DNA of 64,000 bases from Lytechinus pictus (taxonomy: Eukaryota). Under the pieces are notes generated by a model. It had not been told where the DNA came from and searched no databases. It saw nothing but the letters and a program-made list of their open reading frames with translations. The stretch spans positions 30,816,001 through 30,880,000 of the forward strand of contig NC_087251.1 in NCBI RefSeq assembly GCF_037042905.1, read 5' to 3'. The position numbers were made by a program, and so were the translations under genes. The stretch's first letter is position 1, and every line of letters begins with the position of its first letter. Positions 36,526-63,009 of this stretch are shown here, piece by piece.

Positions 36526-36640
36526 ATGGCTGCTTTCTGCCGTAAATTACGGCATATCCTCTTTTTCGTACTTTTAAACATAATTTGTGGTGGAGCAGAT
36601 TTGCCAGAAAAGGTCCTCTGTGCAGATTCAAAGTGCAAAG
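36526..36640 (+). CDS. MIA3: TANGO1/MIA3 exon 1: signal peptide plus start of the MOTH domain (MAAFCRKLRHILFFVLLNIICGGADLPEKVLCADSKCK)
   Basis: Basic n-region, hydrophobic h-region and small residues, followed by LCADxxC, the hallmark of MIA/OTOR/TANGO1. Donor AAG|GTGAGT, phase 1. Confidence 0.93.
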
Positions 36641-43745: not shown

Positions 43746-43876
43746 CTCCTATATCTAAAGTACAGACGGTGTTCAGTTATAATGCTCCAGACCCCCACTA
43801 CTTGTCTTTTAAGCAGTTTGAAGTTATTCAGGTATTTGCCAAGGATGCGGACAAATCTGGCTTTTGGACAGGAGAG
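43746..43876 (+). CDS. MIA3: TANGO1/MIA3 exon 2: SH3-like core (APISKVQTVFSYNAPDPHYLSFKQFEVIQVFAKDADKSGFWTGE)
   Basis: Acceptor tttttctttcAG and donor GAG|GTAAGG; phase 1-0. The pattern PIS...YxAPD..LSF....I.VF.K....FW.G is that of the MIA family. Confidence 0.94.
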
Positions 43877-44915: not shown

Positions 44916-45014
44916 CTGCTTATGAAACCTGGGAATATTGGTCTCTTCAACAAAGATCATGTGAAAGAGTTAGTTGTATTCAACAAAAGTCCTGCCCAAC
45001 ATGTTGACATTGTG
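44916..45014 (+). CDS. MIA3: TANGO1/MIA3 exon 3: end of the SH3-like domain (LLMKPGNIGLFNKDHVKELVVFNKSPAQHVDIV)
   Basis: Acceptor tttttcttgttatAG and donor GTG|GTACGT; 99 nt, phase 0-0. GLFNKDHVKE corresponds to the family GYFPxxxVxE motif. Confidence 0.9.
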
Positions 45015-46540: not shown

Positions 46541-48776
46541 GATGTCTTTGACAATAGAGGGATACCACATGGGTTAGGAGATAAAACACCCTCTGAACCT
46601 ACGGCAGAGGAAACAGAACATCTTGAAATAAAAGAAGATAATGGAACAGATGAAGGGCAGTACCTGAGTGGCCAGGAGCAGGGACAGGAGCATAGTGGGG
46701 GAGAACAGGACCTGAGCCATGATAATCCAGACCAGACCAAGGAGCAGAATGGATTGGTACCGGATAGGGACCATGATACAGCACAGCAGGGACAGGAGCA
46801 GAGTGAGGGAGAAAAGGTCCAAGAGCAGTTAGAATCGGAACAGATCCAGGGACAGGAACAGAGCAGAGAAGCCCAGGACCAAGTAGAGGATCAGGACCAC
46901 AATGAATCAGAACAGGAAAAACAACAAAGCAGGGAAGAGCAGGACCAGGGGGAGACTGGAAATCTGGACCAGGACCACATTGAACAAGAACGGGAACAGG
47001 ACCAGGAGATGAATGCACCAGGTAGGTTTAAATTTGTGGCAGATCAACAACAAAGCAAGGAGGAACCTGAATTAGTGAGAAATCATATCAAAGTTGGTGA
47101 TGGACCAAATAATGAAATTGGTGATGGTTTGTCTAATGATAACTTTCATAGAAGTGGAAGAAATGGAATCAAATTTGAACAAAATGCCAAAGTGCTGATT
47201 GATGAAAAATCAGTGGATAATTTTCAAAATGAAAGAAGAGATATTGAAAATAGAGAAAATAATCTAAGAATGGTTGTGCAAAGTGAATCATTGATCATAG
47301 GACATGAGGAGATAAATGGGAATGGACTTGATGTGAATAAAGCAATTCAAGGAACTGTGTCTCAACAGGATAATCTGGATATAAATAAATCAGATGCAAA
47401 ACCTAACTTACAAGCAGATATTTTCCCCACCCAAAGTGATGATTATTCTCAATATCAGTTTGAAAAAGCAAGTTTCGCTAATGACAAACATCAAGATTTA
47501 TCTTTGAAGGAATCAGATATTGTTAATGTACATCTATCAAAAGAAAGCGTTGATTTTACGGAACTTAGACCCAATCCAAAGATAGATATTAAGCTTGAAA
47601 ATACTGAATTATTTAAAAGAGATAAGGATACACCATCTGAAACATACATTCCTCATGATACAGGCAACATAGGGAATGAACAAGAAGAAATTGAAGTTTA
47701 TGACAATTATGGCAAGGAGAAAGAAGATGATGGCGTGGTGTTTTTCCATCGGGAATATGATGAAGAAGAGGAGGAGGATTTTCTTGATGAAATCCTAGAG
47801 GCTAGGGGCATCGAAGACAAACGTATCGAGGAAGAAAAGAACAAACCCAAAAAAAGAAATGCAAAGGTTGCTTCCCATGGAGAGGACTTGGATAAGGGCG
47901 ACTTAGAGGAAGTTGAGAAAAGCCACTACGACGGTCCTGTCAAGAACGAACCTGATGAAGAAAGGATGAGTGTCATCCACAAAGTTCAGCAACTGATTTT
48001 CGATACTCAGAAGCAGGAGAGAGTCATCAAGGAACTGACTGAGAAGGATCCCCCAGGAGGTCCCGAGAGGGGTGATATTATGGGTGTGGAAGAAGCAGCT
48101 TATTATCAGGAAATGGAGAGGGCTATGGAAGAAGAAGAAGAACAAACAGATTTGGACAATGTTGTATTTGAGAGTAGAAGGGAGCAGATGAAGGACCGTA
48201 AAGTAGCTGAAGCCATGGTTGAAGAAACACAAGAAGAAATAATGGTCTCAGATGATGAGGATGAAGAAGAATTCGATAAGGAAGAAATTGAAGAAAAAGA
48301 TTATGATGATAATAAGGAGGAGGATGAAGAAGAAGAAGAGGAGGAGGAGGAAGAAGAGGATGGGCTAAATATACAAGATGGAGAAAATGAAGAGACGAGT
48401 CAAGATAAGAAGAATGAAGATTTAGAATATACCAATATAATAGATCAAACCATCCTACCTGATGAAACCTTGACATTTAATGATAAGGATGACATTGGAA
48501 ATGAGGAATTTATTCAGGAAGGACTTGAGAGTGAAGGTTTGGATGACGGAGATGAAGGGGTATTAGGTTTAGTGGAAAATGATGAAATTGAAGAATGGAT
48601 AATTCATATGGATCAGAATATAAGAGAAGAATTGGACTACCAGAGGGAATTTGATGAAAATTCTAGGGAAGGAAGAGAGATGGAGGCCGTCCAACCATCT
48701 AGGACTCTTGACCCCGAAGGAGATGTGGAACACATTGACAGTGACACTGCTTTTCAGGAGAATATAATGGTCTTCG
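46541..48776 (+). CDS. MIA3: TANGO1/MIA3 exon 4: acidic low-complexity lumenal region, with an alternative internal donor after 47021
   Basis: Lies within the 805-aa ORF. Polypyrimidine tract and AG end at 46540 in phase 0. Donors CAG|GTAGGT (after 47021) and TCG|GTAAGT (after 48776) are both phase 1. E/D/Q-rich, as is typical of the TANGO1 lumenal region. Confidence 0.85.
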
Positions 48777-49942
48777 GTAAGTTGGATGGAAAAGTGCACA
48801 ATGCTGCCATAATATCAAACTGCATACAAGCTGCATGTGTCTCCTCACACTACTCCATTCATATTGCCTAACCTTGGACTTTCATAATCATCTCAACCCC
48901 ATTACACCAACTCAATTGCCAAACTAATACATGCATTATCAATTTAATTATCCGGTAAGTAATGTAAATATCTGTGAATTCTGGACAATATCCCTTTCAA
49001 CAATACATTGATTTATTGATGAAATACTTTGACTTTGCCTTTGTATTGATTTCAATGAGTGGGAAATCCATTTTTTTAACATAATACGTTCTGCTAGCAT
49101 AGAGTAAGTTGCAAAATAAAGTTTGTTTTATCTCAAATATTATACATTATGATGCAGTAGCATGCGCAGGGGGGGGGGTACAGGGGTTCAACCTCCCCTA
49201 AATTTGTTTTGGAACCTTTTTGTACGCAGGGAGGTGGTTACAGGGGTTCAACCCCCCCCTAAACATTTTTTGAAACCCTTTTTTCTTACTCGTCATTTTT
49301 TTGGTCTGAAACAACCTCCAATTTTTTATGAAAACCCCCTTTTTTGCTTGTCAACTTGTCATTCAGCTTGAACCCCCTCCCCTTCAAAAATCCTGCGTAC
49401 AGGGGGACTGTTATGTTGTGAATATACATGATATCAATTGCTATAGTGTTTTTGAATTGAAATATAATTTTTCCTTGTATTCTAAATAATGATTGATACA
49501 TCTGAATAAAATCATGAAAAGTCAACAGTTCACAATTTACAGAAATAAATGAAAACCCCCAAAAGCAATGTACATGTATACACATATATGTTCATTATTA
49601 ATTTAATTGTAAAAATATTATGTTTTACTTGTTGAATGTGCTTTGTGTGTACTGAACTAACCTACCGCAACTGTATGGATTGATGTCGATCATGTGTGCA
49701 TTTTGTTCTTTTGTTTTGTCCAAGTACAAGTAATTGATATTCATGCAATTTGCTTTTGATTGGTAAGATTTAAGTTTGCCTGTTATTTTATTGCTGCTAA
49801 TACTAATCTTTATTTATTGCTTTGTTTTGTTTCTTCTTATTTTGTCTTTCATGCTTGTCATTTTGTTTTGTGGATGTTCCTGTTTGTTTAATGTGTATGC
49901 TTCATCTTCATGTAAATATATACTGCATGCTGTTGCAAGTAG

Positions 49943-52900
49943 ATTTTGGAAAACAATTGGAATCAAGCAAATCAGAAAGTCAGAATGATGAAAATGAGGC
50001 AGAGGAAAATACTATAAATGTAGAAATAGACACTTCTAGCAATAACATAAATATTGAAAATATAGATAAATTTCAACAAGACGTAGACTGCCTTTGGTTC
50101 TATTCACTTCTAGTCCATCAAAGGAAATATCCTGTTTGCCCTATCAGCCACCAGATGATAGAGTTTATAGACACAGACAAATCAATAGAGTACATTTCTA
50201 GCCATGTGTTACGTGATAAACACGTCAATACGAAAGACATTGATAACTTTAGTGAATTGCTATACATTTTTGGCAAGTGTGATGCGTCATCGTTGAAATT
50301 TCAATCAGAGCACAGAGTATGCACAGCTGTGGAATATTTTATCAGAGCCTTTGAGAATGAGGAAAACCCTAATGTGAAGCAGAATCTGGAGCCTGGAAGA
50401 GAAGTCAATCACCCTTTTTGCATGGCCGACCAAAGTTTTGAGTACATGAATGTCATGCAGACAGTTGGTCTTTGCTTTGACAGTGATATTTCTGCGAAGA
50501 AGAGCGTAAACCCACAAACACAAACGAGACCAAAAGACATCAACAATGTTGACTGTATGAAAATAGATTATCAGGATATAATGCAGATATATCTATTTCA
50601 TTCTACGTGTTCTTATTATGGGAAGGATATTGATTCTGAACCATCATGTTTAGAGCCTGTTCAAATAAATAAAGTTTTTACTGAAGATTCAATTGACATT
50701 GATGACAAACAAAGAACAGAGAAAGATAATAAGCTCAAAGCATCTGAGGGAATCATCAAGGTGTCCCCAAATGCTGCTGCCAAAGTTGAGTTTTTGTCTC
50801 TCCTCTTAATGAGTTGGTATCCACATTTAGAAATCACTCCAGCGAATGGGGTTGAAGCAAAGAAGACACCACCAATTGACCACACAAAGACAGAGAAACA
50901 TCCACCTAGAAATGATACGTCCATGGAATTAGATGATCTAGCTGGAAAACCTGAAATTCCTGACAGTCAAACTGACCTTGGTGAGCCAAAAATAGGTAAG
51001 GAATATATGTGGCTGACTTGTCCCAACGAACAATTACTTGAACTTGAATTCTCAAAATTGTTTATGTGCACCATTGATGGAATGGAGAGCACTTCAACGG
51101 TATCTGAAGTGGTAAAAAACTTGGAGAAAGAAAGCAATCATGTTATACAAGATGAAGGATTGCTCTCAGATTCATCACAAATTGCCATTATGCAGAATAA
51201 TAATGGGACAACACCTTGGTCAACTCTGAGTGCCAACAAGTGTCAAGGTAGTGAATGTCCTGAAAATAAAGCTGAAAGAAGAAGCGTTTTTCATGACAAA
51301 CCAAGGATGTCCCAGACCCAAAGCCAGTACTGCAGCCGTCCAATGTACGTTGATCTCTTAGTTCCATCAGGAGGATTGTGTGAAGTTCAGCAAAAGACTT
51401 CAAAACAAGAAGTATTTTACAGAAGCACAGCTTTGTCTTGCAGCAAGCTCAAAAGATACAAAGATATCCTACTAGCTTACAACCAACCAAAGTTTTGCAT
51501 AATTCAGGACTTTTCAATTGCCCCAAAAGTTCCCACTGAGGCTATGTCTGTCAACACTTCAAGCAGACTGGATGGATATCATCATGAATTTGCTGATGCT
51601 TATATGAAAAAGTATTACTGTTTTGGTAGCCAGTCTATTTTACCACCAGAAGTGGATCATCATGAGGACAAATCTGGGTCTATCAATACCATCTTGGTCT
51701 CCAAGAAACTCACTTTACGATGGAATCAGAGCACCTGTAGCAAGATTGATGGATATTTTCATACACTTAATGATAATTTTAGAAAGGAAAAACAGTGTTT
51801 AATTGATGGTGATCAAGTGGATGTAAAATCAAAAGAAAAATCTCAAAAAGTGTGTTCAAAACATTCTCAATCCTGTTTGTATGTAGACTTGTTCATGAAA
51901 ATAATTTCCTTCTACAAGAGGATTTGTTTTATGACAGATGGCCATATGCTGATGCATCGTGAATTCGAAAGCATCTTAATTGAAGCAAACCTAGACTCAA
52001 AGCCCAGTATTAAGACATTCAAACAACCAAATGAAACAATCGAACACAAAATCCTCCATGGGCATGGATCATGCCGTTTAGACCTCTTTGAGGACATTGT
52101 AACATTTCGATCAAAGCAAAGATTTTCCAGGAATGGCATTATCAAGGAAATAGAGATGTGTCCCTTGAGAAAAATTACATTGATGGAAGAAGTTGGTGTT
52201 CCTTCAGAGGCAACTGATGAAAGTATCCTGCATTCTGAGAAACATGAACAGAATGTGCCTGTAGATCTTACAGGAAGTACTCCAGAGATTAGGTTTTCTT
52301 ACAGTCACAATGATTCTTGCTTCCAGGGATCCAAGCTGGATGATTACAAGGCACTCCTCAGTTTTATGTGTACTCCCCTTCAATTCCAATCAGGTCAAGA
52401 TAAACAGTTACCTGAAAAGGAAGGAAATTATTTTGTAGAGATTGAGACTATTCTCTGTCCCATCAACACTTGCTGTCCATTTTCCAAGGTGGATGGATAC
52501 AAGGCACTGTTCAACCTAATGTGTATACCTTTATACCTCAAATCAGCTGAAAATTCAAGTGAAGGAAAGATTTTAAAAGAGAGTGAGGTTCACCAAAGTT
52601 ATACCAATCCTTTGCTCCATTGCTCAAAGATAGATGAATACAAAACACTCTTCATCCTCATGACAGATACTCCTGTACAACTGCAATTGTCTTCAGATTC
52701 GCATTTCCCAACTAATCTAGGAATAAGTTTAGATGTGACTAGGTCTGCTCTCAGTTCAATCTCTTGTTGTCAGTGCCCTAAGATGGATGAATATAAGACA
52801 CTGTTTGAAATAAAGAAACACGCTCCTCCTGACTTCCAATTGACCCAAGCCACAGCATTCCCTCCAAAGGAAAGAAAGGATTTGATAGAACTGAAGGTTT

Positions 52901-55900
52901 CTCACAGTCTTCCCCTCCAATCGGATTCAGATGAACAGTTTCCAAATGACAAAGGAAAGGGTTTGGAAGAGATAGTAGTTTCTTACAGTCCAAGTAACTC
53001 TTACTGTCTGTGCTCAAAGATTGATGAATATAAGGCACTATTCACCCTTAAAACTTGTGTGCCTCTACACAGCCAGTCATCTTCAGATGAACAGCTCCCA
53101 ACTGACAGAGGAAAGGGTTTGGAAGAGATCGAGGTTTTTCACAGTCACAGAAACTCCTGCCGTCCGTACTCTAAGATGGATAAATATAAGGCACTGTTTG
53201 AAATTATGAAACATACTCCTCATGACTTCCAATCTACCCAATCCATAACTTTTCCTTTAAAGGAAGGAAAGGATTTGATAGAACTGAAGGTCTCTCGCAG
53301 TCCCATCAAACCTTGCCAATATTCAAAGGTGGATGGATATAAGGCACTGTTTAACCTTGCAGCTTGTGATCCTCTACCCCTCCAATGGGATTCAGATGAA
53401 CAGTTTCTAAATGACAAAGGAAAGGGTTTGGAAGAGATAGTGGTATCTAACAGTCCAACTAACTCTTACTGTCTGTCATCAAAGATGGATGAATATAAAG
53501 CAATGTTTAAACTTACAGTTTGTGATTCTCTTCACCTCCAACCAACTCCAGTTGCACAGTCCTCAACTGACAAAGGAAAGGGTTTCAAAGTGATTGGGGT
53601 TTTTCGAAGTCACAATGCCTCTTGTTGCCAGTGCTACAAATTAGATGAATACAAAACATTGTTCGACCATACAATTTGTTCTTCAGCCCACATTCAATCA
53701 GCTAAAGATTCTCAATATCTTACAATCAAAGGAAAGGGTTCGGAGGAGATTGAGGTTTCTCAAAGTTCCACCAAATCTTGCAGCCACCTATCTAAGATAG
53801 ATGAATATGAAGCAATGTTTTACCCTGCAACTTGTTCTTCAGTACCGCTCCAATTAGCTGAGGGCTCACAATATCTTAAAGTCAAAGAAAATGCATCAGA
53901 GGAGACTGAAGTTTCAGAGAGTCCCACCAAGTCTTGTCACCATTGTTCCAATATGGAAGAATACAAGGAACTGTTTCATCCTACAACTTGTTCTTCAGCA
54001 GACATGCAATTAGGTAAGGGCTTACAATATCTCACAATCAAAGGAAATGGTTCTGAGGAGATGGAGGTGTTTATAAGTTTCTATCAACTCTTGAATAACC
54101 ACTTTTGCCTCTGTAACCACTCTGGAAATCTAACCAAATGGACGTCTTCTTGTCAGACCGATCTATTCATGCTGCTTGTATTTTCTGTAAGTCATTGTAT
54201 TCCAGATGTGTTCCCATCAGATTTACAGCCTTGCTCAAAACTGGAAAGTACCCATGAACACTTCTCAAAGCAAAATAACCAATCAAAATCTAAAAGCTCG
54301 GAATATGAAATTTACCTTTACAAAGTGATTTTGAAAAAAGAAGATGTCTGTCTTCAAGTAGAGTTTCAGAACCATAGCTGTACTGCTCTTGACCTTTTGA
54401 ATCATGATGATTTACAAACAGAGAAAGGAAATGTACATTTTGAATATGAGATTTACAGACTCCTCATGGAATCTGAGAAATTGTGTTCTGTGAAACAATT
54501 TGATGATTCATGCTCATTGTTGGAAGGATTTGATAGAGTATCTAGAGAGGAAAGTCATGATCTATTGAGACCCGATGGAGGATATTATGATCTGCTCATC
54601 TATAGATCCGTCATGATGCAAGAAGATGTATGTCTTCCAGACAAGTGTTTTGACAAGCGTAGTACAGCTCTTTACTATGTGAAAACTAGTGATTCAAAAA
54701 GTATAAAGGAATTAGATAGGACCGATTATGAACTGTACAGATATTTTATGTCAGCTAAGAAATGGTGCATCGTGGAACAATTCATAGACTCTCAGTCATG
54801 CTCCGTCTTTGAAATTTTTGATGGACAGACTTCAGTGGTAAATTCTAGAGTACTGAAACCTTACGACCTTCTCATCTATAAAGCAATATTGAACCAAGAA
54901 AATGTATGTCTTGCAGTCAAGAATCCACATCAGTACTGCACAATTCTCGATGTCTTTGACATGTGTGATTCTCAGATTCCAGATGGCAGCAAATATGATC
55001 TCTATAGGAACCTGATGGTCGCCAGTCAGTTCTGCTTTATTGAGGAATCTATGACTGACATGTGTCCCTTAATTCAATATCTTGACATTAAATCTATTCC
55101 AGAAGTAGACATGATTTCGATCAAACCCACAACTCATGATGATATTGGTGGAATACTTTATTATCAATTAATGACAAACATTGATTGGTGCATCAAGGAT
55201 GAGAACTTTTTTACTGAAAGATACTGTCTGCCTGAAGATCATTTCTCAAATACTTCTGGAATGCAAGAAAGGGAGGCATTGATATTTAACAAGAGAGCAT
55301 CTGGATCACTGTTATTTCAGTTGTTGATGACTTGTAACGGGATGAGCTTCCAAGAAGACCATTCTACAGCAGGCTGTACTTGTGATATCGTCAGTTATTT
55401 CTGCTCAGGCAGCAAAGACGATGAGAAAAAAGATGTTCGGGAAACAGGCTTTCAACGGAGGCCATCTAATCTTGCACTGTACTTTAGCCTATTAACAGGA
55501 TCAAGATTTTGTCTCGCCGATGATGAAAAGCTGCATACATCTTCAAAGATAAGTCTAATCTTTGATCACTTCATTCAAGATAACAAAGAACCGAATCAGC
55601 CTGAATCTTGTGAGGATGGAACATACCATGGCATTCTGGACTTGTATAAAGATCTGATGATGGGCCAACAAATGTGCTTTGTAAATATAGATGAACATTC
55701 ATGTGTGGCAATACATCAGTTTGTAGGCAATGTAACAGAGACTGCTGCAAGTGGTGCATTCAAATCTTCCAGTGATCCTAAACAGTATGTTACATTCTGT
55801 GCTCTTGCACAAGGGTTCCCAATTTCATTCCCAAATGATAAACAATCGTTTTCGTACTGCACTTGGTTCGATTTCAACCTTTCATCCAATCTGGCTTCTG

Positions 55901-56359
55901 CATTGTCAGGAAAAAGTGCAACTCAAAATGACACAACTCTTGTCATCAGCAATTATGAAGAAATGATTATGTCTCCTTGGAAGTGCATGGTGTATGTTGA
56001 CAAAATGGCTAACTGCATGTGTCATGATGCCCATCCTCATGATAAATATCTTGAAAAAAAATCACAACTCAATGAGAAATCCTACAGTGCTTCTAAACCA
56101 AAGAGAAATAAAAAAAAGAGACAGCGACAGAGAAGTGACATTAAGTTTGAAAATAATTTGGTCAAATTGAAGTCCATGATTGACTCCTTCAGCCAGTGCA
56201 GACTGCTTCATGAATCTGACTACAGAAGTGTCTGCTTTTTCTTTAGTCATCGTGTGTCCCAAATCATGGAAAACTCTGTAGTGTATACTAGCCCTCTTAT
56301 TGACACCACTCGCAAGAGGAGGTCAGTTTATTCTCTTCAAGTTGATTATGTTTCAAGTG
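49943..56359 (+). CDS. MIA3: Giant Cys-rich repeat-coding exon (about 2139 aa), probably a cassette exon of TANGO1/MIA3
   Basis: Lies within the uninterrupted 2200-codon ORF. Tandem acceptor cAAG-TAG (49937-49942, both phase 1) and donor GTG|GTAAGT (phase 1). The length of 6417 nt is a multiple of 3, and the exon sits on the same strand between two phase-1 TANGO1 junctions. Coding status is near certain; inclusion in TANGO1 mRNA is inferred. Confidence 0.72.
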
Positions 56360-59132
56360 GTAAGTCACCAAACTTTCATTGCACCACTACATGTATGCTA
56401 GTAGAAAGGTTATTGTTTATTTAATAGATTAGGTATACATGTAGATATGATCACAAATATCCTTACGAGTGATTAAAGTTCTTGTAAATCTCTCACAAAT
56501 ATGTATGGATTCTGGAGTTTCAGGAATTTCATTAAGTCCTATGAAGTTTATATTGTCAATATTCATTTTAAAGAGTATCAGAAGAAAGTTAAGTCCATGT
56601 GTTCTGAGTTATTTTGCCATAGGTTCAAGATGATCATATAAATGTGCAGGTTATTACTCAATGAAATCTGAAGAATTTTGTCCCACTTTGACCTCTAAAT
56701 GGTAGTAGTGTATTCCCATAGTCTGAAAATTCTGTGTCAACAATTCCTTTTGTGAGGAATCTTTGGAGCATTTTGGCCTGGACAGAATAGGGGTTTTGTA
56801 AAATTTTTTAATTGTAATCTTTCATCTTACAACAACATTTATGTCTTTCAAGGTCGTTGAGGCATTGTCATTGTAAATCCTTATTCCAAAGTCATTTTTG
56901 GGGGACTCCAAGAACTTGAGGCATACTTATCATCATTGTAGGAATTTGGTGACCCATTTAGAATTTCTTCTGACCTTAGATATTTCTTAAAGCTTGAATA
57001 GTCTTACGATGTTCAAAAGACGTTAGTACACTGCCTTGTGATATTGTAAAGCCCATTTCACACTTGGTGGAGCAACTACGTACAACCGTTGTGATTGTGT
57101 GCAACATATATTGTGACCAAACGGTCGCAAGAGCGATTGTGAGAGCCCTTTACGGCATTCTTAAAATCTTGAAGTGCAATTTGAATTGACTGCAACTAAT
57201 GCAGATCTTTGATCTCAAGATTCGATCTCCCTAATAAAACTTCTTTAAAAAGCCAATCCAAAATTTTTATAACACATTGTTCACTCAGTATTTACAGCCA
57301 TTCGTAAGGGTATTTGTGATTGAGGAAAATGACATCCCAGACGTACATGTAGGATACCTTCATTTTCTCCTCTTCTTCCCACCCCTTTATTTTAGACAGA
57401 TCTAGTTGAATAGTTAAACATCTAGTTGAATAGAACACTTACATATCAAAGGTATCTTAATATATGCTCTGTTACAAAATGTAATTTACACTGATACATT
57501 GTGAACTATACATTAATAATAAAAAGTGAAAAGCAATATTACATTGGAAAAAAAAAATATCCATGCTCATATCAGACAGGAAGTCATAGTTAGAAACGTG
57601 AAGGAAGGAACTGCATGTAAATAAAAAACGTATCCATTTGCATCATATTACTACTACAGTATAATGTGGAAGTCTGCAATTAGTTAAATCCTCTTATCAG
57701 TTCATACATGTAGACTCGTTTTAAGACAACAAAAAAACTATTTCAGAGTGCTACTATTCATCAAAACTAGATCAGATCTATCCAGTAGTGATTGACCATC
57801 ACAAAGCAGCAGAAACGTTAATTAACTTTGATTAGTGATTTTGTAACTCTGCATCCATTTACATACAGATATTAATCACACATATTCTGCATATTTTAAC
57901 TATATTTCAAGCAAAAAAATTCAATTGGTATCTGATTTTCATTTTCATTTTTAAAGAACATTGATAAATGATGTGTGTTATAAAGAATCAATTAAAACTC
58001 TTTCTTGATCATTTTTAATTTGAAATTGAAGATATTAAATCTAGCATTCAGCTAATAAGCATAACACTAATGGTCAGCTTTGCAATGAATAAAGGTCATT
58101 GCTTAGCCCATAATCTATTTATCCAATGGGTCATCATATATGTGGGACTAACCAAGGTTTAATGAGGGTAATTCAATGTACATATTCTCATGGAAGGAGG
58201 AATGTCAAGTGGATCGATCTTTCATTGCAAAAGCCTGTTAATAACTTTCTGGCCACATGATAGCCAAGGAAAATATGTACAATGTAATCTGAGCCCTCGT
58301 GCTTGCATTACACGTCTTTAACAAGTAGATTATTAAGGTTGAAACGATCATTTGAACTTTAATGAATCTTTCAATAAAGAATTTAATCCTAGTTTCTCTA
58401 TGAATATGAAATTCAGATACCTTAAAAAAATGATTCGGAAAGTAGAAAACCCAGTCACATTTACTTTAGGTTTTATTGATTTACAGTGATATTCAACTTC
58501 ATACTGTCTTAAAAATCTTAAAAATACACTTTAATCACTATGACTTACTTAAATACATGGCATGATACAATGTGAACCTGCTACAAATGTAGATAACAGA
58601 TCTCCCTTTTCATCATTGATATACAGTAGACTAAACTTCTAAAAATTTGTTACAAAAGCATGCCTTAATTGCTCATGTGTATGTGATTGAAAGGGCGATA
58701 TGCATGGCTGTTATGTCTATATGTTCCTTATTGATGTACTTACGTATGCAAATAGCATGGTCTTAATTTAATGTTCTTGTTTAATGTATAAGAGTATGGG
58801 CAACATGAGGCAAAGTAATTGATTCCTATCAGCTTAGTGTGTGCATGAGTGATACATATATTCAAGCTGGTGATATTTCTAACAAAAATTTAAAAACGTT
58901 TCTTCAAAAAGGGTACCTCTCAAAATACCCCTCAGAGGCATGTGGATACTAAATTGAATGTTTGATGGTTGCTATATTTGTATGTTGCAGCTGCATCTGT
59001 ATTTAGACTTGATTGCTGGCATGACACATACTGAGAGAATGCAGTCTTCAACAAAGAATGAAACTGGGGATAAGGACTTTAACAAGGGGAATAATAATAT
59101 GACAGAACATAATTATAGAATAGAGGTAACCG

Positions 59133-59350
59133 GGGGCCTGTTACACAAAGCTTAGCAATGATCGTAGAGCATTTTTCTATGATTGATTCCATTGAGTACA
59201 ATGTACAATCAATCATGAAAATCAAGCATACGATCAATCGCTAACCTTTGTGTTACGGGACCCAGGACCCCCATATCACAAAGCTTAGCAATTGATCGCA
59301 TCGATTATTGTGTATGATCAATCATAAAAATCAGCACAATCAAATCAATC
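59133..59350. mobile_element. Palindromic Harbinger-like MITE (59133-59262) followed by a partial second copy
   Basis: GGGGCCTGTTACACAAAGCTTAGCAATGATCGTA ... TACGATCAATCGCTAACCTTTGTGTTACGGGACC. CACAAAGCTTAGCAAT is repeated at about 59277. Confidence 0.75.
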
Positions 59351-60163
59351 ATGTTTATGTTTTGAGGGTCCAGTTTTGAAAATTGGTAATGAATAATGAA
59401 ATTACAAAGTTAAGAATGGTTGGAAGAGTCCTCGTTTACTGTTAATGGCAAGTCTTAAATTTATTGTCAGTCACAGGGTTCGACTTCATACATGTAGGTT
59501 GCCCGTGGGCATTTGGCTCCCCAAATCCTTGTCAAGTTGTGACATGCTCCTTAAAAATGTTTGAATAAGCTCATCTGACCCCTTAAGTTTTTCTTGCAAA
59601 TTATATGATAAAGTTGAATACACATTGTGAAATATAGTTTAATTTCAAGCAATATGTGTGTGAAGTGTGTGTAAAACATATTGAAACATTTTTCTTATGC
59701 AAAAATTTGCTATTTTTTTAAACAACATATCTAGTCCAAGGCATGCCATAGACAGTATATTGAGACCTCAAAGATTCATAGCTCTTATTTTGTAACCAAT
59801 TAATATTGAACTTGCAATTAATTTTATGTATTCTCTTCTCTTATCTAATTGATAGTGAATTTTCCCCAGGGTGTCGCTCTCCTTTATCTTAATAGCATGG
59901 AATATAGATACTTGTATGCTGTAATGTGATAGAGTGCAGGAAATATATAATCCAAGCATGTGTGTAGCACAATGTATATTATAATAAAATGCCAGGCTTA
60001 GAATGAGCTCATTTGACTTTTAGAATTGCTTTAATATTTAGGGAATGATATATGAATATTAATGAAATTGGAAGTGCATGAAAAAAGATGTATTTTACTC
60101 TCCTACATGTACTGCGACTTCGCCTGGGACTGCTGCTATTTATACTTTCTTTAAGTATTCTAA

Positions 60164-60164
<1 letters not shown>

Positions 60165-60245
<81 letters not shown>

Positions 60246-60300
60246 TTACTACTACTACTTCTACTTCTACTACTTCTACTACTTATACTGCTTCTACTAC
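60165..60300. repeat. (CTA)n microsatellite
   Basis: Long perfect CTA run that decays at its 3' end. Confidence 0.98.
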
Positions 60301-60653
60301 TTATTAATCTAATATCTATCTACCAGGTCTTCATCTACTGCAAGAAATAATATTACAGCTTATAAGTGATCTGAAAATAAATTATTTTTAAATTATTTAA
60401 TAGTAAAGAAATATGATAATTTTTCAATTACATGTTATTCAAACATATAAGTATATTTTCACTATGTCGTCTTTGTCATGCATGCAATCATTAATCCATT
60501 CCAACATACAAATCATTCATATATATGTACATGTACATTGTTATTTAACCACATTCATTGTACTTGTAAAATTGTATTTGTCTCCAGAAAAGTAAGTTGG
60601 ATCATATTTTATCAATATTTATCAAAATTATAACATACTTAAGTGTACATGTA

Positions 60654-61261
60654 CAGTTGAGGCCGAAAGTTTACATACACCCATGGAATTTAGTGAAATT
60701 TGTTTGTTTGCCAAACATCGTAAAATTTACTATATCTTCAGAAATATAAATACTACTATGATGAATTTGATGTCAAATGAAAGAGTATATAAAGCTCTTT
60801 TAGGTGGAATTTTTTTGAGAAAAAAAATATATATTTGTGCCAAATGTATTCTTTTGTTTGTTATTATATTTTCAAACATTGTTTCATAGAACTATATAAA
60901 TGTTAAATTTATGGTTTATATTCCTTTTCTATCATGATATGTCACCACTGAATAAAAAGTTTCATCTGAAATGTTTGTGTTGAGAAGTAACTAGCACAAA
61001 TATTAAATTTTTTGGTCAAGTTTTTATTTTTGATTTGACTAAAATATGAAAAAAAAATTGGGGAAAAATGATACTTAAATATTTTTCAGCTCCTGATGAC
61101 AAAGCAATGTGATGAAGGGGCATGACATACTCATCTGTTTGATATCAAATTTGTCATGATAGCACAAATATTTTATAAGATACAGTGAATTCTATGTTGC
61201 TTCGCAAGTGTCAACTTTTCTTTGAATTACCTGGGTGTATGTAAACTTCTGGCCTCAACTG
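60654..61261. mobile_element. Tc1-like non-autonomous element (608 bp)
   Basis: TA|CAGTTGAGGCCGAAAGTTTACATACACCCA ... TGGGTGTATGTAAACTTCTGGCCTCAACTG|TA: 30-bp TIR and TA TSD. Confidence 0.93.
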
Positions 61262-61666
61262 TATTGTTACACTATGCTTGATCTGTATTATTAATCAAAT
61301 TGTACAAATGATATGGTTTTAATTTATTACTAAATTATATTTCCTAATTTTCCATTATTTATTTCCATAGTTATTTATGGGATTGACATGTCTTACAAAT
61401 TGAATAACTGCCTCTTGTAGAAAGTATTTATGAAGTCAGGAGAATCAAAATTGTATTATTGATTTGCTTAATAGGAAAAGTTTTATACATTGTAATTAAG
61501 AATGAAATATTAAATTCAACTATGATCAATTCTTTTCATGGATATATTTAGAGTTTGATACATAATAGAATAATGATCAGTGTAGTAAAGTTTAAATGAA
61601 TTTTTATTGTGATTTTTTATAGAAATTAGAACATTTTGTTGTATTTTGTTTTCTTTTCTTAATCAG

Positions 61667-63009
61667 ATGAAGGAAAAGAACCAGAGGGTACAGGAAACTC
61701 AGAGGAACATGTAGATGACGATGACACACAGAAAGAAAATGAAGAAGAAATAGAAGAAAAAACACAGGACTCCGAAACAAGCCAAAAGAATGAAGAGGAA
61801 GATGTGATTGGGGAAGCTGTGGAAACGGATGAAGTGGAGGATAGTGAAAGGAAGCATGATATTGAGGAAGACATTGTGAAGCAAAATGATGAGATTCAGC
61901 CAGATTCTATTCAGCCAAGCCCGTCATTTGAAGTAATAGATGGCACCACTATCTATTTGAATGATTTAGAACCTACACCTTTGCCTGGAGAACCTGCTAG
62001 CGAGAAATACAATACATTTAACATCCATTCTAGCGACATTGTAGATGTGCCCAAAAAAGAAGATAGTGATGAAAGCGATGTTGGTCCTCCATCTAGTTTT
62101 TCTTTCAAAAGTGAGGATGAGATTGATCCTGAAGCTTACAGGAACATCCTGAACAAACTCCATGCCAACCCTGAACTCCGGGACAAAGAAGGTGCCATTC
62201 AGCAGGAGATGCTGAAGATCCTCCGTGACCCTGAACTGAAGAAGAACTTACTTATCAAGGCCCATGAACCTAAAAGGGACATCTTGTCACCTTTCAGATC
62301 GCAACATCCAGCACCTGGGGATGCTGTGCACATGGATCAGGCACAGGGTCACGTGGACGATAATGTTGATCTACAGAAACTGGATGCCATGCAAGATGAA
62401 TCTGTGCCACTTGACGATTCAGATACAGCTATACCCCCATTAGCTACGGGACCTAATGTTGTAAAAGGAAGACCAAGTAGCCCTCTTGATAAAGATGAGG
62501 AAGATATCAATTTTGTAGATCCATTAGCTCTCTTACAGGAAGACACAGAAGAACCTCCTCTGTCCATTAATGAAAAGATTGATATCGCAGAAGAGATCCT
62601 GAAAACCAAGGACTTCTCAAGTGAAAACCTTCAACCACCGGTGCCGCCTGACGATCCCTATGACCCTGTCAAGCTTGCAGCCAAATTGAACACGGTCAAA
62701 GGCTCAAATCCTGCTGTCTTTGGGGATCCGGCCCAAGAGGTTTTTAACGATGATCCAGCTCTGTCGGCTCTCGAGGACCAGAACGATCCAGTGGAGCAGG
62801 AGAGCCAAGAACCGTCATTGAATCATTCCCATGTCACAATGCCCTCAGACACAGAACAGGTAGAAGATAAAGTAGAAACCATTGATGATGAAGAAGTTCC
62901 TTCTCCACACTTAGATTCCCATCTACCACCTGGCGTGGATACCAGACCGAATGTTGAGGAACTGGCTGACAGCAGCTATGGGGAGCCTGGATTACGCACC
63001 AGCACACGG
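61667..63009 (+). CDS. MIA3: TANGO1/MIA3 next lumenal exon (DEGKEPEGTGNSEE...GLRTSTR), acidic and Pro-rich
   Basis: Strong acceptor ttttgttttcttttcttaatcAG in phase 1. The frame is open for 1343 nt and includes the 432-aa ORF. Donor CGG|GTGAGT, phase 0. Confidence 0.85.

What the first reader, a model, noticed from the sequence alone, without database searches (positions are those of the whole stretch)
54295..56035. Repeat family B: about 10-12 diverged ~48-aa units [YL]-x-[LI]-Y-x2-[LIVF]-[ML]-x5-C-h-x(7-10)-C-x2-h-[DE]-x-[FL], alternating as a dimer
Seen: type 1 units (YLYKVILKKEDVCL, LIYRSVMMQEDVCL, LIYKAILNQENVCL) alternate with type 2 units (YEIYRLLMESEKLC, YELYRYFMSAKKWC, YDLYRNLMVASQFC). 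More diverged units follow (ILYYQLMTNIDWC, ALYFSLLTGSRFC, DLYKDLMMGQQMC, SNYEEMIMSPWKC). The protein pattern persists although the DNA is much more diverged than in family A. Inference: an older array under selection for Tyr/Cys spacing, possibly sharing an ancestral Y-x-x-L...C helix with family A and with the C-x(15-19)-C loops in the first third of the exon.
Basis: partly seen in the sequence, partly recalled or inferred. Interest (0 to 1): 0.72.

Follow-up and report, generated by a model that had tools for sequence, protein, structure and literature searches.

The report
Cysteine-repeat tail on soluble TANGO1
These are real tyrosine/cysteine protein repeats, conserved in a related sequence, inside a 6.4-kb optional exon of a sea urchin's TANGO1 gene (the ER export factor for bulky cargo such as collagen); the exon is likely used as a last exon, which would give an unanchored 278-kDa form of the protein with an undescribed repeat tail.

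Summary
The repeats are real: self-alignment scores 236 against 38.6±5.8 in shuffles (0 of 100). Nine units are individually significant and the first six alternate as a ~94-aa dimer. In one related protein (55% identical over B), 18 of 19 motif Tyr/Cys are kept (neutral expectation ~10.5); other residues drift almost neutrally. Kinship with family A or the exon's first third was not shown.

The array lies in a 6.4-kb alternative exon (49943 on) of Lytechinus pictus TANGO1/MIA3. Most spliced reads skip it. In one study's contigs it is spliced in (2 of 4 runs) and read through the 56359 donor past its own stop (3 of 4 runs); no joint out of it was listed. The likely product is a 2435-aa protein: signal peptide, MIA/MOTH domain, repeats, no membrane anchor. 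RefSeq, and this scan's earlier notes on the same DNA, model an internal cassette instead. No note was found on other DNA.

No Pfam, ESM Atlas or fold match; AlphaFold models were unusable. Function is inferred: disulfide-closed modules on a collagen-binding head. Verdict: new variant of a known kind.

The parts
36526..36640 (+). TANGO1 exon 1: start codon, hydrophobic signal-peptide-like stretch, start of MIA/MOTH domain (Cys-x4-Cys)
   Evidence: sequence; spliced N-terminal 276 aa 94% identical to L. variegatus TANGO1 P0009
43746..43876 (+). TANGO1 exon 2, MIA/MOTH (SH3-like) domain
   Evidence: its 3' end appears as the loose end joined to exon 3 in X2, X4, X5; P0009 hits Pfam SH3_2 and human MIA 1i1j
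44916..45014 (+). TANGO1 exon 3, end of MOTH domain
   Evidence: joint 45014>46541 in 8 of 8 runs laid
46541..48776 (+). acidic lumenal exon 4, with internal donor at 47021 and an in-frame internal intron 47022-47663
   Evidence: joints; frames
49943..56424 (+). giant Cys-rich alternative exon, coding part through its own stop (56422-56424); donor-like sites at 50995, 54013, 56359, all phase 1
   Evidence: ORF; joint 47021>49943 in X2 and X4, contigs unbroken across 56359 in X2, X3, X4; donors
52255..54030 (+). repeat family A, eleven ~52-aa units (context, not this finding)
   Evidence: scores 19-30 vs even units, 10-12 vs odd units; not significant by profile
54295..55110 (+). family B units 1-6: three type1+type2 dimers, period ~94 aa
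55150..56035 (+). family B distal units: 7, 9, 10 significant; 8 and the last degenerate
56036..56421 (+). C-terminal tail: Lys/Arg patch, one R-x-[KR]-R site, no hydrophobic anchor, no KDEL
   Evidence: 61% identical to P0012 over 107 aa
56425..57912 (+). likely 3' UTR of the terminal-exon form; AATAAA at 57233, 57518, 57620
   Evidence: contigs X2 55934-57110 and 57093-57912, X3 53412-57121, X4 55653-56983; signals; end not mapped
61667..63009 (+). next acidic lumenal exon of membrane-anchored TANGO1, with second in-frame acceptor at 62915
   Evidence: joints 47021>61667, 48776>61667, 47021>62915; RefSeq proteins continue to TM, coiled coil and Pro-rich tail

Best explanation
Family B is a selected array of ~45-50-aa Tyr/Cys units in a giant alternative exon of sea urchin TANGO1, and the exon is likely used mainly as a last exon, which would give a soluble 2435-aa protein made of the signal peptide, the MIA/MOTH cargo-binding domain and about 2,160 Cys-rich residues with no membrane anchor. 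SHOWN: the repeats, their dimeric start, conservation of motif Tyr/Cys and of the open frame in a relative, skipping of the exon in spliced reads, contigs that splice into it and contigs that run through its donor past the stop. INFERRED: polyadenylation about 0.8-1.5 kb past the stop (the IgM-type membrane/secreted switch); entry into the ER; each unit as a short Tyr-Leu-Met helix followed by a 9-12-residue loop closed by a disulfide, with unpaired Cys free for links between units or chains; units behave as interchangeable beads, since their number differs between species while the residues between motif positions drift. MOST LIKELY JOB (inferred, about 0.3 on its own): a condition- or tissue-restricted, disulfide-stiffened multivalent tail that carries the collagen-binding MOTH head away from ER exit sites, into the ER lumen or the extracellular matrix.
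For: Repeat statistics. Motif conservation 18 of 19; Cys+Tyr+Trp 36 of 49 vs 28±3.3 neutral, P about 0.01. Frame stays open and collinear over 587 aligned residues and 9 gaps, where neutral drift would give 14-16 stops (0 of 300 simulations stop-free, two models). Coding-type base bias: G 0.28 at codon position 1 vs 0.16-0.17 in the intron. Pooled dN/dS between B dimers 0.42, near saturation. Host gene: P0005 matches P0001 at 100% and is named L. pictus LOC129264571, clustered with proteins named TANGO1 homolog. Splicing: GT-AG in-frame joint 47021>49943 in 2 of 4 runs; single contigs cross 56359 with over 400 letters on each side in 3 of 4 runs; the joint table of that call, which hides no rows, has no joint leaving the exon. 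P0012 also runs on to its own stop a similar distance past the aligned donor position. No hydrophobic window above 1.53 outside the N-terminal one. Unit number varies: P0012 has two dimers, lacks one whole 44-aa unit and has 3 A units against 11. MOTH binding to collagen IV in Drosophila: PMC10119292, passages.
Against: RefSeq proteins join the exon at 56359 (XP_063958541/2, XP_054758445) or 54013 (XP_054758443/4) to the membrane part, and all three strong donor-like sites in the exon are in the phase that allows this. The four runs that hold the exon are contigs of one study, of unrecorded kind (I take them as RNA because they hold exon-exon joints); contigs drop rare joints; the joint into the exon has only 25-26 letters on its short side, under the tool's 31-letter bar; no poly(A) site was mapped, and A-runs at 57548 (10), 57731 and 57913 could prime unspliced RNA; X3 holds the upstream intron unspliced. 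In raw reads X6-X8 (6% of each run) exon bins have depth 0-0.38 against 1.5-7.4 in the two bins of the next exon. Listed allele differences in the exon are 5 synonymous to 19 non-synonymous, as neutral sites would give (P 0.36-0.61; 25 rows hidden). Cys alone or Tyr alone over the whole region are not significantly conserved (P 0.10-0.16). Cys pairs are not always kept together (unit 3, unit 9, P0012 unit 6). A second related contig has the region in frameshift-like pieces. Core helices show no hydrophobic moment above shuffles (P 0.54). No usable structure (pLDDT 48 and 35). No protein evidence.
Confidence: 0.55

Rival explanations
1. The working form is an internal cassette: the exon is spliced at 56359 (or 54013, 50995) to the next exon and lengthens the lumenal arm of membrane-anchored TANGO1 by up to 2139 residues, so the repeats act as an extra cargo-binding or spacer region at ER exit sites; read-through contigs are unspliced precursors.
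For: Exon 49943-56359 is 6417 nt, phase 1-1, and the joined form is open; five RefSeq proteins are modelled this way (their read support not seen); three donor-like sites all in phase 1; P0012 keeps Gly-Lys-Ser at the aligned donor; earlier scan notes e1-7881345 and e1-9254878 read it so (unchecked).
Against: No joint out of the exon among listed rows in 8 runs (complete; one search hides 16 rows); unbroken contigs across 56359 in 3 of 4 runs while other, equally short joint contigs from 47021 and 48776 were kept. The RefSeq models start inside the upstream intron or the exon and lack the signal peptide and MOTH domain, so they are not trustworthy as wholes.
Confidence: 0.27
2. The exon once coded under selection but is now a rarely used, decaying exon in this lineage; the repeats are a relic and little or no protein is made.
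For: Neutral-like 5:19 synonymous to non-synonymous differences; 16 of 730 residues differ between two L. pictus assemblies in B plus tail against 2 of 411 in the coiled coil; window units more diverged than the relatives'; near-absent in X6-X8 and X1; frameshift-like pieces on a second related contig; no exon-bearing L. variegatus protein came up.
Against: 2,160 codons without a stop; no indel listed inside the exon in 4 runs; none of the 16 inter-assembly changes hits a core Tyr or Cys of B; the ordinary acidic lumenal exons are at least as variable (21 of 608; 4:11); long single contigs cover the exon in X2 and X3.
Confidence: 0.12
3. The Cys serve metal binding (metallothionein-like), or the array is a domesticated piece of a mobile element or of a known Cys-rich family.
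For: 31 Cys in 632 residues, some as Cys-Cys or Cys-x-Cys; lineage-restricted insertion inside an old gene.
Against: Only 4.8% Cys; a signal peptide points to an oxidising compartment (established knowledge); no Pfam family for the ORF or P0012 and only sub-threshold hits for the dimers; no second copy in the window; no Rfam match.
Confidence: 0.05

Closest known systems
TANGO1/MIA3, invertebrate type (Drosophila Tango1)
   Same: Host gene: signal peptide, SH3-like MOTH domain with only the first Cys pair, long acidic lumenal region, and in the full-length RefSeq proteins TM, coiled coil and Pro-rich tail.
   Different: A 2,160-residue Cys-rich exon with two repeat arrays; a likely form with no TM or cytosolic part. 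Vertebrate TANGO1S is the opposite cut (loses the lumenal part; PMC5379956 passage). My searches found no paper on Lytechinus TANGO1 and none on such an isoform (listings only).
MIA2 versus TALI (MIA2/cTAGE5), and the extracellular MOTH proteins MIA and otoraplin
   Same: One locus giving a MOTH-bearing product that can be secreted and a membrane-anchored TANGO1-like product (PMC4862334 and PMC4319175 passages); MIA and otoraplin are extracellular MOTH domains (PMC10119292 passage).
   Different: Those are vertebrate paralogues with small secreted forms (43-70 kDa for MIA2); here the TANGO1 gene of an invertebrate gains a dedicated giant last exon with new repeats.
Intronic polyadenylation membrane/secreted switch (IgM heavy chain; skipped and composite terminal exons)
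   Same: An intronic exon or read-through donor ends the transcript before the TM exons; AAUAAA downstream (PMC5928244 passages).
   Different: Skipped terminal exons are described there as small; this one adds 2,160 codons, most of the protein. Cleavage site not mapped here.
Small disulfide-rich tandem modules of secreted proteins (LDL-A, EGF, TIL and the like; recalled, no call)
   Same: 40-50-residue units strung in tandem with fixed Cys, variable copy number.
   Different: Two Cys per unit rather than six or more, a Tyr-Leu-Met helix core, no Pfam match.

Membership tests
TANGO1/MIA3 gene | N-terminal signal peptide | tested here: met
   most hydrophobic 19-mer of the isoform is residues 8-26; hydropathy only, no SignalP
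TANGO1/MIA3 gene | SH3-like MIA/MOTH domain after the signal peptide | tested here: met
   P0009 (94% identical to the window's N-terminus): Pfam SH3_2 E 1.1e-5, MIA 1i1j E 2.6e-4
TANGO1/MIA3 gene | invertebrate MOTH: first Cys pair present, second absent | tested here: met
   only Cys32 and Cys37 in residues 25-130; criterion from PMC10119292 passages
TANGO1/MIA3 gene | TM region, coiled coils, Pro-rich tail downstream | tested here: met
   beyond the window; present in P0005, P0007, P0009, which share the window's exon 61667-63009
TANGO1 exit-site receptor (the terminal-exon isoform itself) | membrane anchor and cytosolic COPII-binding part | tested here: not met
   stop at 56422-56424, no TM-like stretch
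TANGO1/MIA3 | collagen binding, ER exit site location | not testable with these tools
   bench work
intronic-polyadenylation terminal exon | upstream donor joined to an intronic acceptor | tested here: met
   47021>49943 in X2 and X4, short side 25-26 letters, one study
intronic-polyadenylation terminal exon | downstream donor not used, in-frame stop, AAUAAA downstream | tested here: met
   contigs cross 56359 in 3 of 4 runs; stop and three AATAAA
intronic-polyadenylation terminal exon | mapped cleavage site with non-templated poly(A) | tested here: inconclusive
   contigs cannot show ends; genomic A-runs nearby
known Cys-rich repeat families in Pfam | profile match | tested here: not met
   0 families for the ORF and P0012; two sub-threshold unrelated hits for the dimers
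one superfamily with repeat family A | significant profile-profile similarity | tested here: inconclusive
   probability 0.9%, 9 of 150 shuffles as high; no B-profile hit in A
disulfide-bonded folded module | confident fold and paired Cys | tested here: inconclusive
   pLDDT 48 and 35 with 4-row alignments; no Foldseek hit at E 0.001

The most novel reading that the evidence does not exclude
Sea urchins switch TANGO1 by alternative 3'-end choice from an ER exit-site receptor into a giant soluble protein in which the collagen-binding MOTH head is followed by new disulfide (possibly also dityrosine) cross-linking repeats: an invertebrate counterpart, evolved separately, of secreted MIA/otoraplin/MIA2, acting as a collagen escort in animals that lack HSP47 or as a matrix scaffold.
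Probability: 0.15. Interest if true: 0.82.

Novelty: new variant of a known kind. Interest (0 to 1): 0.52.

Why it matters
How TANGO1 recognises varied bulky cargo, and how invertebrates handle collagen without HSP47, is stated as open in PMC10119292 (passages). A natural isoform that keeps the cargo-binding head, drops the membrane anchor and adds an undescribed repeat tail would be a new kind of TANGO1 product, in Lytechinus pictus, a laboratory model (own knowledge), and can be tested with one RT-PCR, one 3' RACE and an exon-specific knockout. If only the cassette form works, it is still a lumenal arm more than doubled by splicing. It also corrects an annotation: the RefSeq models that hold the exon lack the gene's own N-terminus.

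Tried and rejected
No whole genome was held, so copy number in the genome is untested. Pfam: nothing for the three large ORFs. Protein search among longer proteins, B region: none of 439 candidates (weak). JGI metagenome scan: 11 pattern matches, none confirmed. ESM Atlas: no usable hit for window dimers or P0012 250-640; this shows neither absence nor novelty. Run search: no RNA holder listed; no evidence either way. In one search the bins 58242-58852 and 59464-60074 have no cover in 4 of 4 runs and contig depth rises along the exon in X2; the tool says such holes and depths cannot rank parts of a gene, so I did not count them. Cover at 56450-57320 may include reads from a repeat (22-nt inverted arms; both-strand reads), so only contigs anchored in the exon were counted. 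AlphaFold twice: low confidence; both put a helix on each Tyr core and a short strand at the first Cys, which I treat as a hint only. A-versus-B homology and B units in the first third: not shown. Amphipathic core helix: not shown. Furin release: one R-x-[KR]-R site near the end, but P0012 has no Arg at the first position; dropped. My first exon coordinates were off by one or two bases and were corrected; the 47665 and 62916 acceptors tried there were one base off and were corrected. One of three B-dimer pairs is saturated, so dN/dS 0.42 is rough. Literature searches cover open-access full text only; supplements were not read, and tissue expression tables there could bear on where the exon is used.
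Full report
OBSERVATION. The finding lies in the last third of a 2205-codon open frame, window 49807-56424 +. Self-alignment of the region scores 236 against 38.6±5.8 for shuffles (0 of 100), with best offsets at 94 and 186 residues; the distal half alone scores 55 against 30.7±4.7 (0 of 100). A profile of units 1-6 gives 9 significant units of 13 candidates tested; those at 54166, 55315, 55780 and 55954 fail. The odd/even split of units 1-6 is the best of 10 possible partitions, and the four matching units of a relative sort to the expected type. B dimers are 53-57% identical in DNA, adjacent A units 57-73%.

HOST GENE. Small exons at 36526-36640, 43746-43876 and 44916-45014 encode a signal-peptide-like stretch and an SH3-like domain. 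The exon's protein matches RefSeq Lytechinus pictus LOC129264571 at 100%; that cluster holds proteins named TANGO1 homolog. The L. variegatus protein P0009 is 94% identical over the window's first 276 residues, hits Pfam SH3_2 and human MIA, and skips the giant exon. The domain has the first Cys pair only, as described for invertebrate TANGO1 (PMC10119292, passages).

HOW THE EXON IS USED. Eight runs were laid. In three raw-read RNA runs (6% of each read) and one contig run, joints go from 47021 or 48776 straight to 61667, and depth on the giant exon is 0-0.38 in the raw reads against 1.5-7.4 on the next exon; 16 joint rows were hidden. In four contig runs of one other study, which hold exon-exon joints and so are taken as RNA, the skipping joints are in 4 of 4 runs, a GT-AG in-frame joint 47021>49943 enters the exon in 2 of 4 (short side 25-26 letters), single contigs cross the donor at 56359 into the downstream sequence in 3 of 4, and no joint leaves the exon. 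Read that way, the transcript encodes 2435 residues, 278 kDa, ending at the stop at 56422-56424, with no TM-like stretch and no KDEL, followed by AATAAA at 57233, 57518 and 57620. Against this: RefSeq joins the exon at 56359 or 54013 to the membrane part, three donor-like sites in the exon are all in the fitting phase, A-runs lie near the contig ends, one run keeps the upstream intron, and contigs drop rare joints. Both uses may exist; the terminal one is what these data show. The RefSeq models begin inside the intron or the exon and lack the gene's N-terminus. Earlier scan notes on this DNA read it as a cassette; I tested that only as far as these runs allow.

RELATIVES AND SELECTION. Three word-based searches and one exhaustive search found, besides L. 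pictus proteins, only five unnamed ENA proteins on two contigs. P0012 (863 aa) is one open frame covering family A, family B and the tail, and ends at its own stop a similar distance past the aligned donor position. Its genomic context could not be seen, so orthology is inferred. It is 55% identical over 463 aligned B residues. At that distance neutral drift would leave 14-16 stops. Motif positions are held: Tyr 7 of 7, first Cys 6 of 7, second Cys 5 of 5, together 18 of 19 against about 10.5 expected (1 and 0 of 3000 simulations) and against 14 of 26 other Cys/Tyr (P=0.003); the two hydrophobic core positions stay hydrophobic in 7 of 7 units. Outside the motif constraint is weak: Cys or Tyr alone P 0.10-0.16, Ile/Val less conserved than neutral, listed allele differences 5 synonymous to 19 non-synonymous, 16 of 730 residues differing between two L. 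pictus assemblies against 2 of 411 in the coiled coil and 21 of 608 in the acidic lumenal part. Unit number varies: P0012 has two dimers, lacks a 44-residue unit, and has 3 A units; P0013 has at least 6. The other contig's proteins are 82-95% identical to P0012 over part of their length and then diverge, as frameshifts would cause; sequencing error and true decay cannot be told apart.

Selection on Tyr/Cys spacing holds, on one relative. 'Older' is weak: window A units average 38% identity and B dimers 35-37%, while the relatives' units are more alike. Common origin with family A was not shown (probability 0.9%; 9 of 150 shuffles as high), nor B units in the first third.

MECHANISM. Shown: a translated-type, selected repeat array in an optional exon that is skipped in most transcripts and entered and read through in some. 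Inferred: intronic polyadenylation gives a soluble isoform, as for IgM (PMC5928244, passages); the units are helix-plus-loop modules closed by a disulfide in the ER. Two AlphaFold runs were too poor to use (pLDDT 48, 35), although both placed a helix on each Tyr core and a strand at the first Cys; Foldseek found nothing. Fixed Cys/Tyr, drifting linkers and variable copy number fit a beaded spacer or multivalent, cross-linkable tail better than an enzyme or a single precise binding site. Since the Drosophila MOTH domain binds collagen IV directly (PMC10119292, passage), the simplest job is to carry a collagen-binding head off the exit site, as lumenal escort or decoy, or into the matrix. That step is untested.

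COMPARISON AND NOVELTY. The gene is a TANGO1 member; the terminal-exon product fails the membrane-anchor test and works, if at all, like MIA2, MIA or otoraplin, MOTH proteins found outside the cell (PMC4862334, PMC4319175, PMC10119292, passages). The repeat has no Pfam, ESM Atlas or fold match. A search for Lytechinus with TANGO1 gave 0 papers; broader searches listed none on such an exon (listings only, open-access library). Look-ups of this scan's notes by sequence, words and relatives found nothing on other DNA.

VERDICT. Real, selected, undescribed repeats in a giant alternative exon of an ordinary known gene; new variant of a known kind; interest 0.52. The splice reading rests on contigs of one study and the function on inference.

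Noticed in passing
window 46541-48776 and 61667-63009: The acidic lumenal region has several in-frame splice choices (donor 47021, internal intron 47022-47663, acceptor 62915), so its length can vary by about 1,000 residues even without the giant exon.
   Followed up: partly
window 48777-49942: Run X3 holds this intron unspliced in one 3077-nt contig; RefSeq X1/X2 start inside it and lack signal peptide and MOTH domain, probably an annotation artefact. Read-through of exon 4 would stop at 48869-48871.
   Followed up: partly
window 50995, 54013, 56359: Three strong donor-like sites inside the giant exon, all phase 1, roughly within the first third, after family A and after family B; an older RefSeq model uses 54013.
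   Followed up: partly
window 56080-56135: A Lys/Arg-rich patch in the tail is kept in P0012 and P0004; unexplained in a lumenal or secreted protein, could bind polyanions.
   Followed up: no
P0008 (XP_063958545.1): A 524-aa protein nearly identical to the TANGO1 coiled-coil and Pro-rich part, listed with the same longest contig length as LOC129264571: partial duplicate or assembly copy.
   Followed up: no
window 60642-61273; 56450-57320; 59130-59270; 60164-60301: MITE-like element with 57-nt inverted arms, another with 22-nt arms inside the likely 3' UTR, a very high-copy short repeat, and an (ACT)n microsatellite.
   Followed up: no
P0002, P0003, P0004, P0013 (one 12,251-bp ENA contig length): Related exon in four pieces with frameshift-like ends; error or decay not resolved.
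   Followed up: partly
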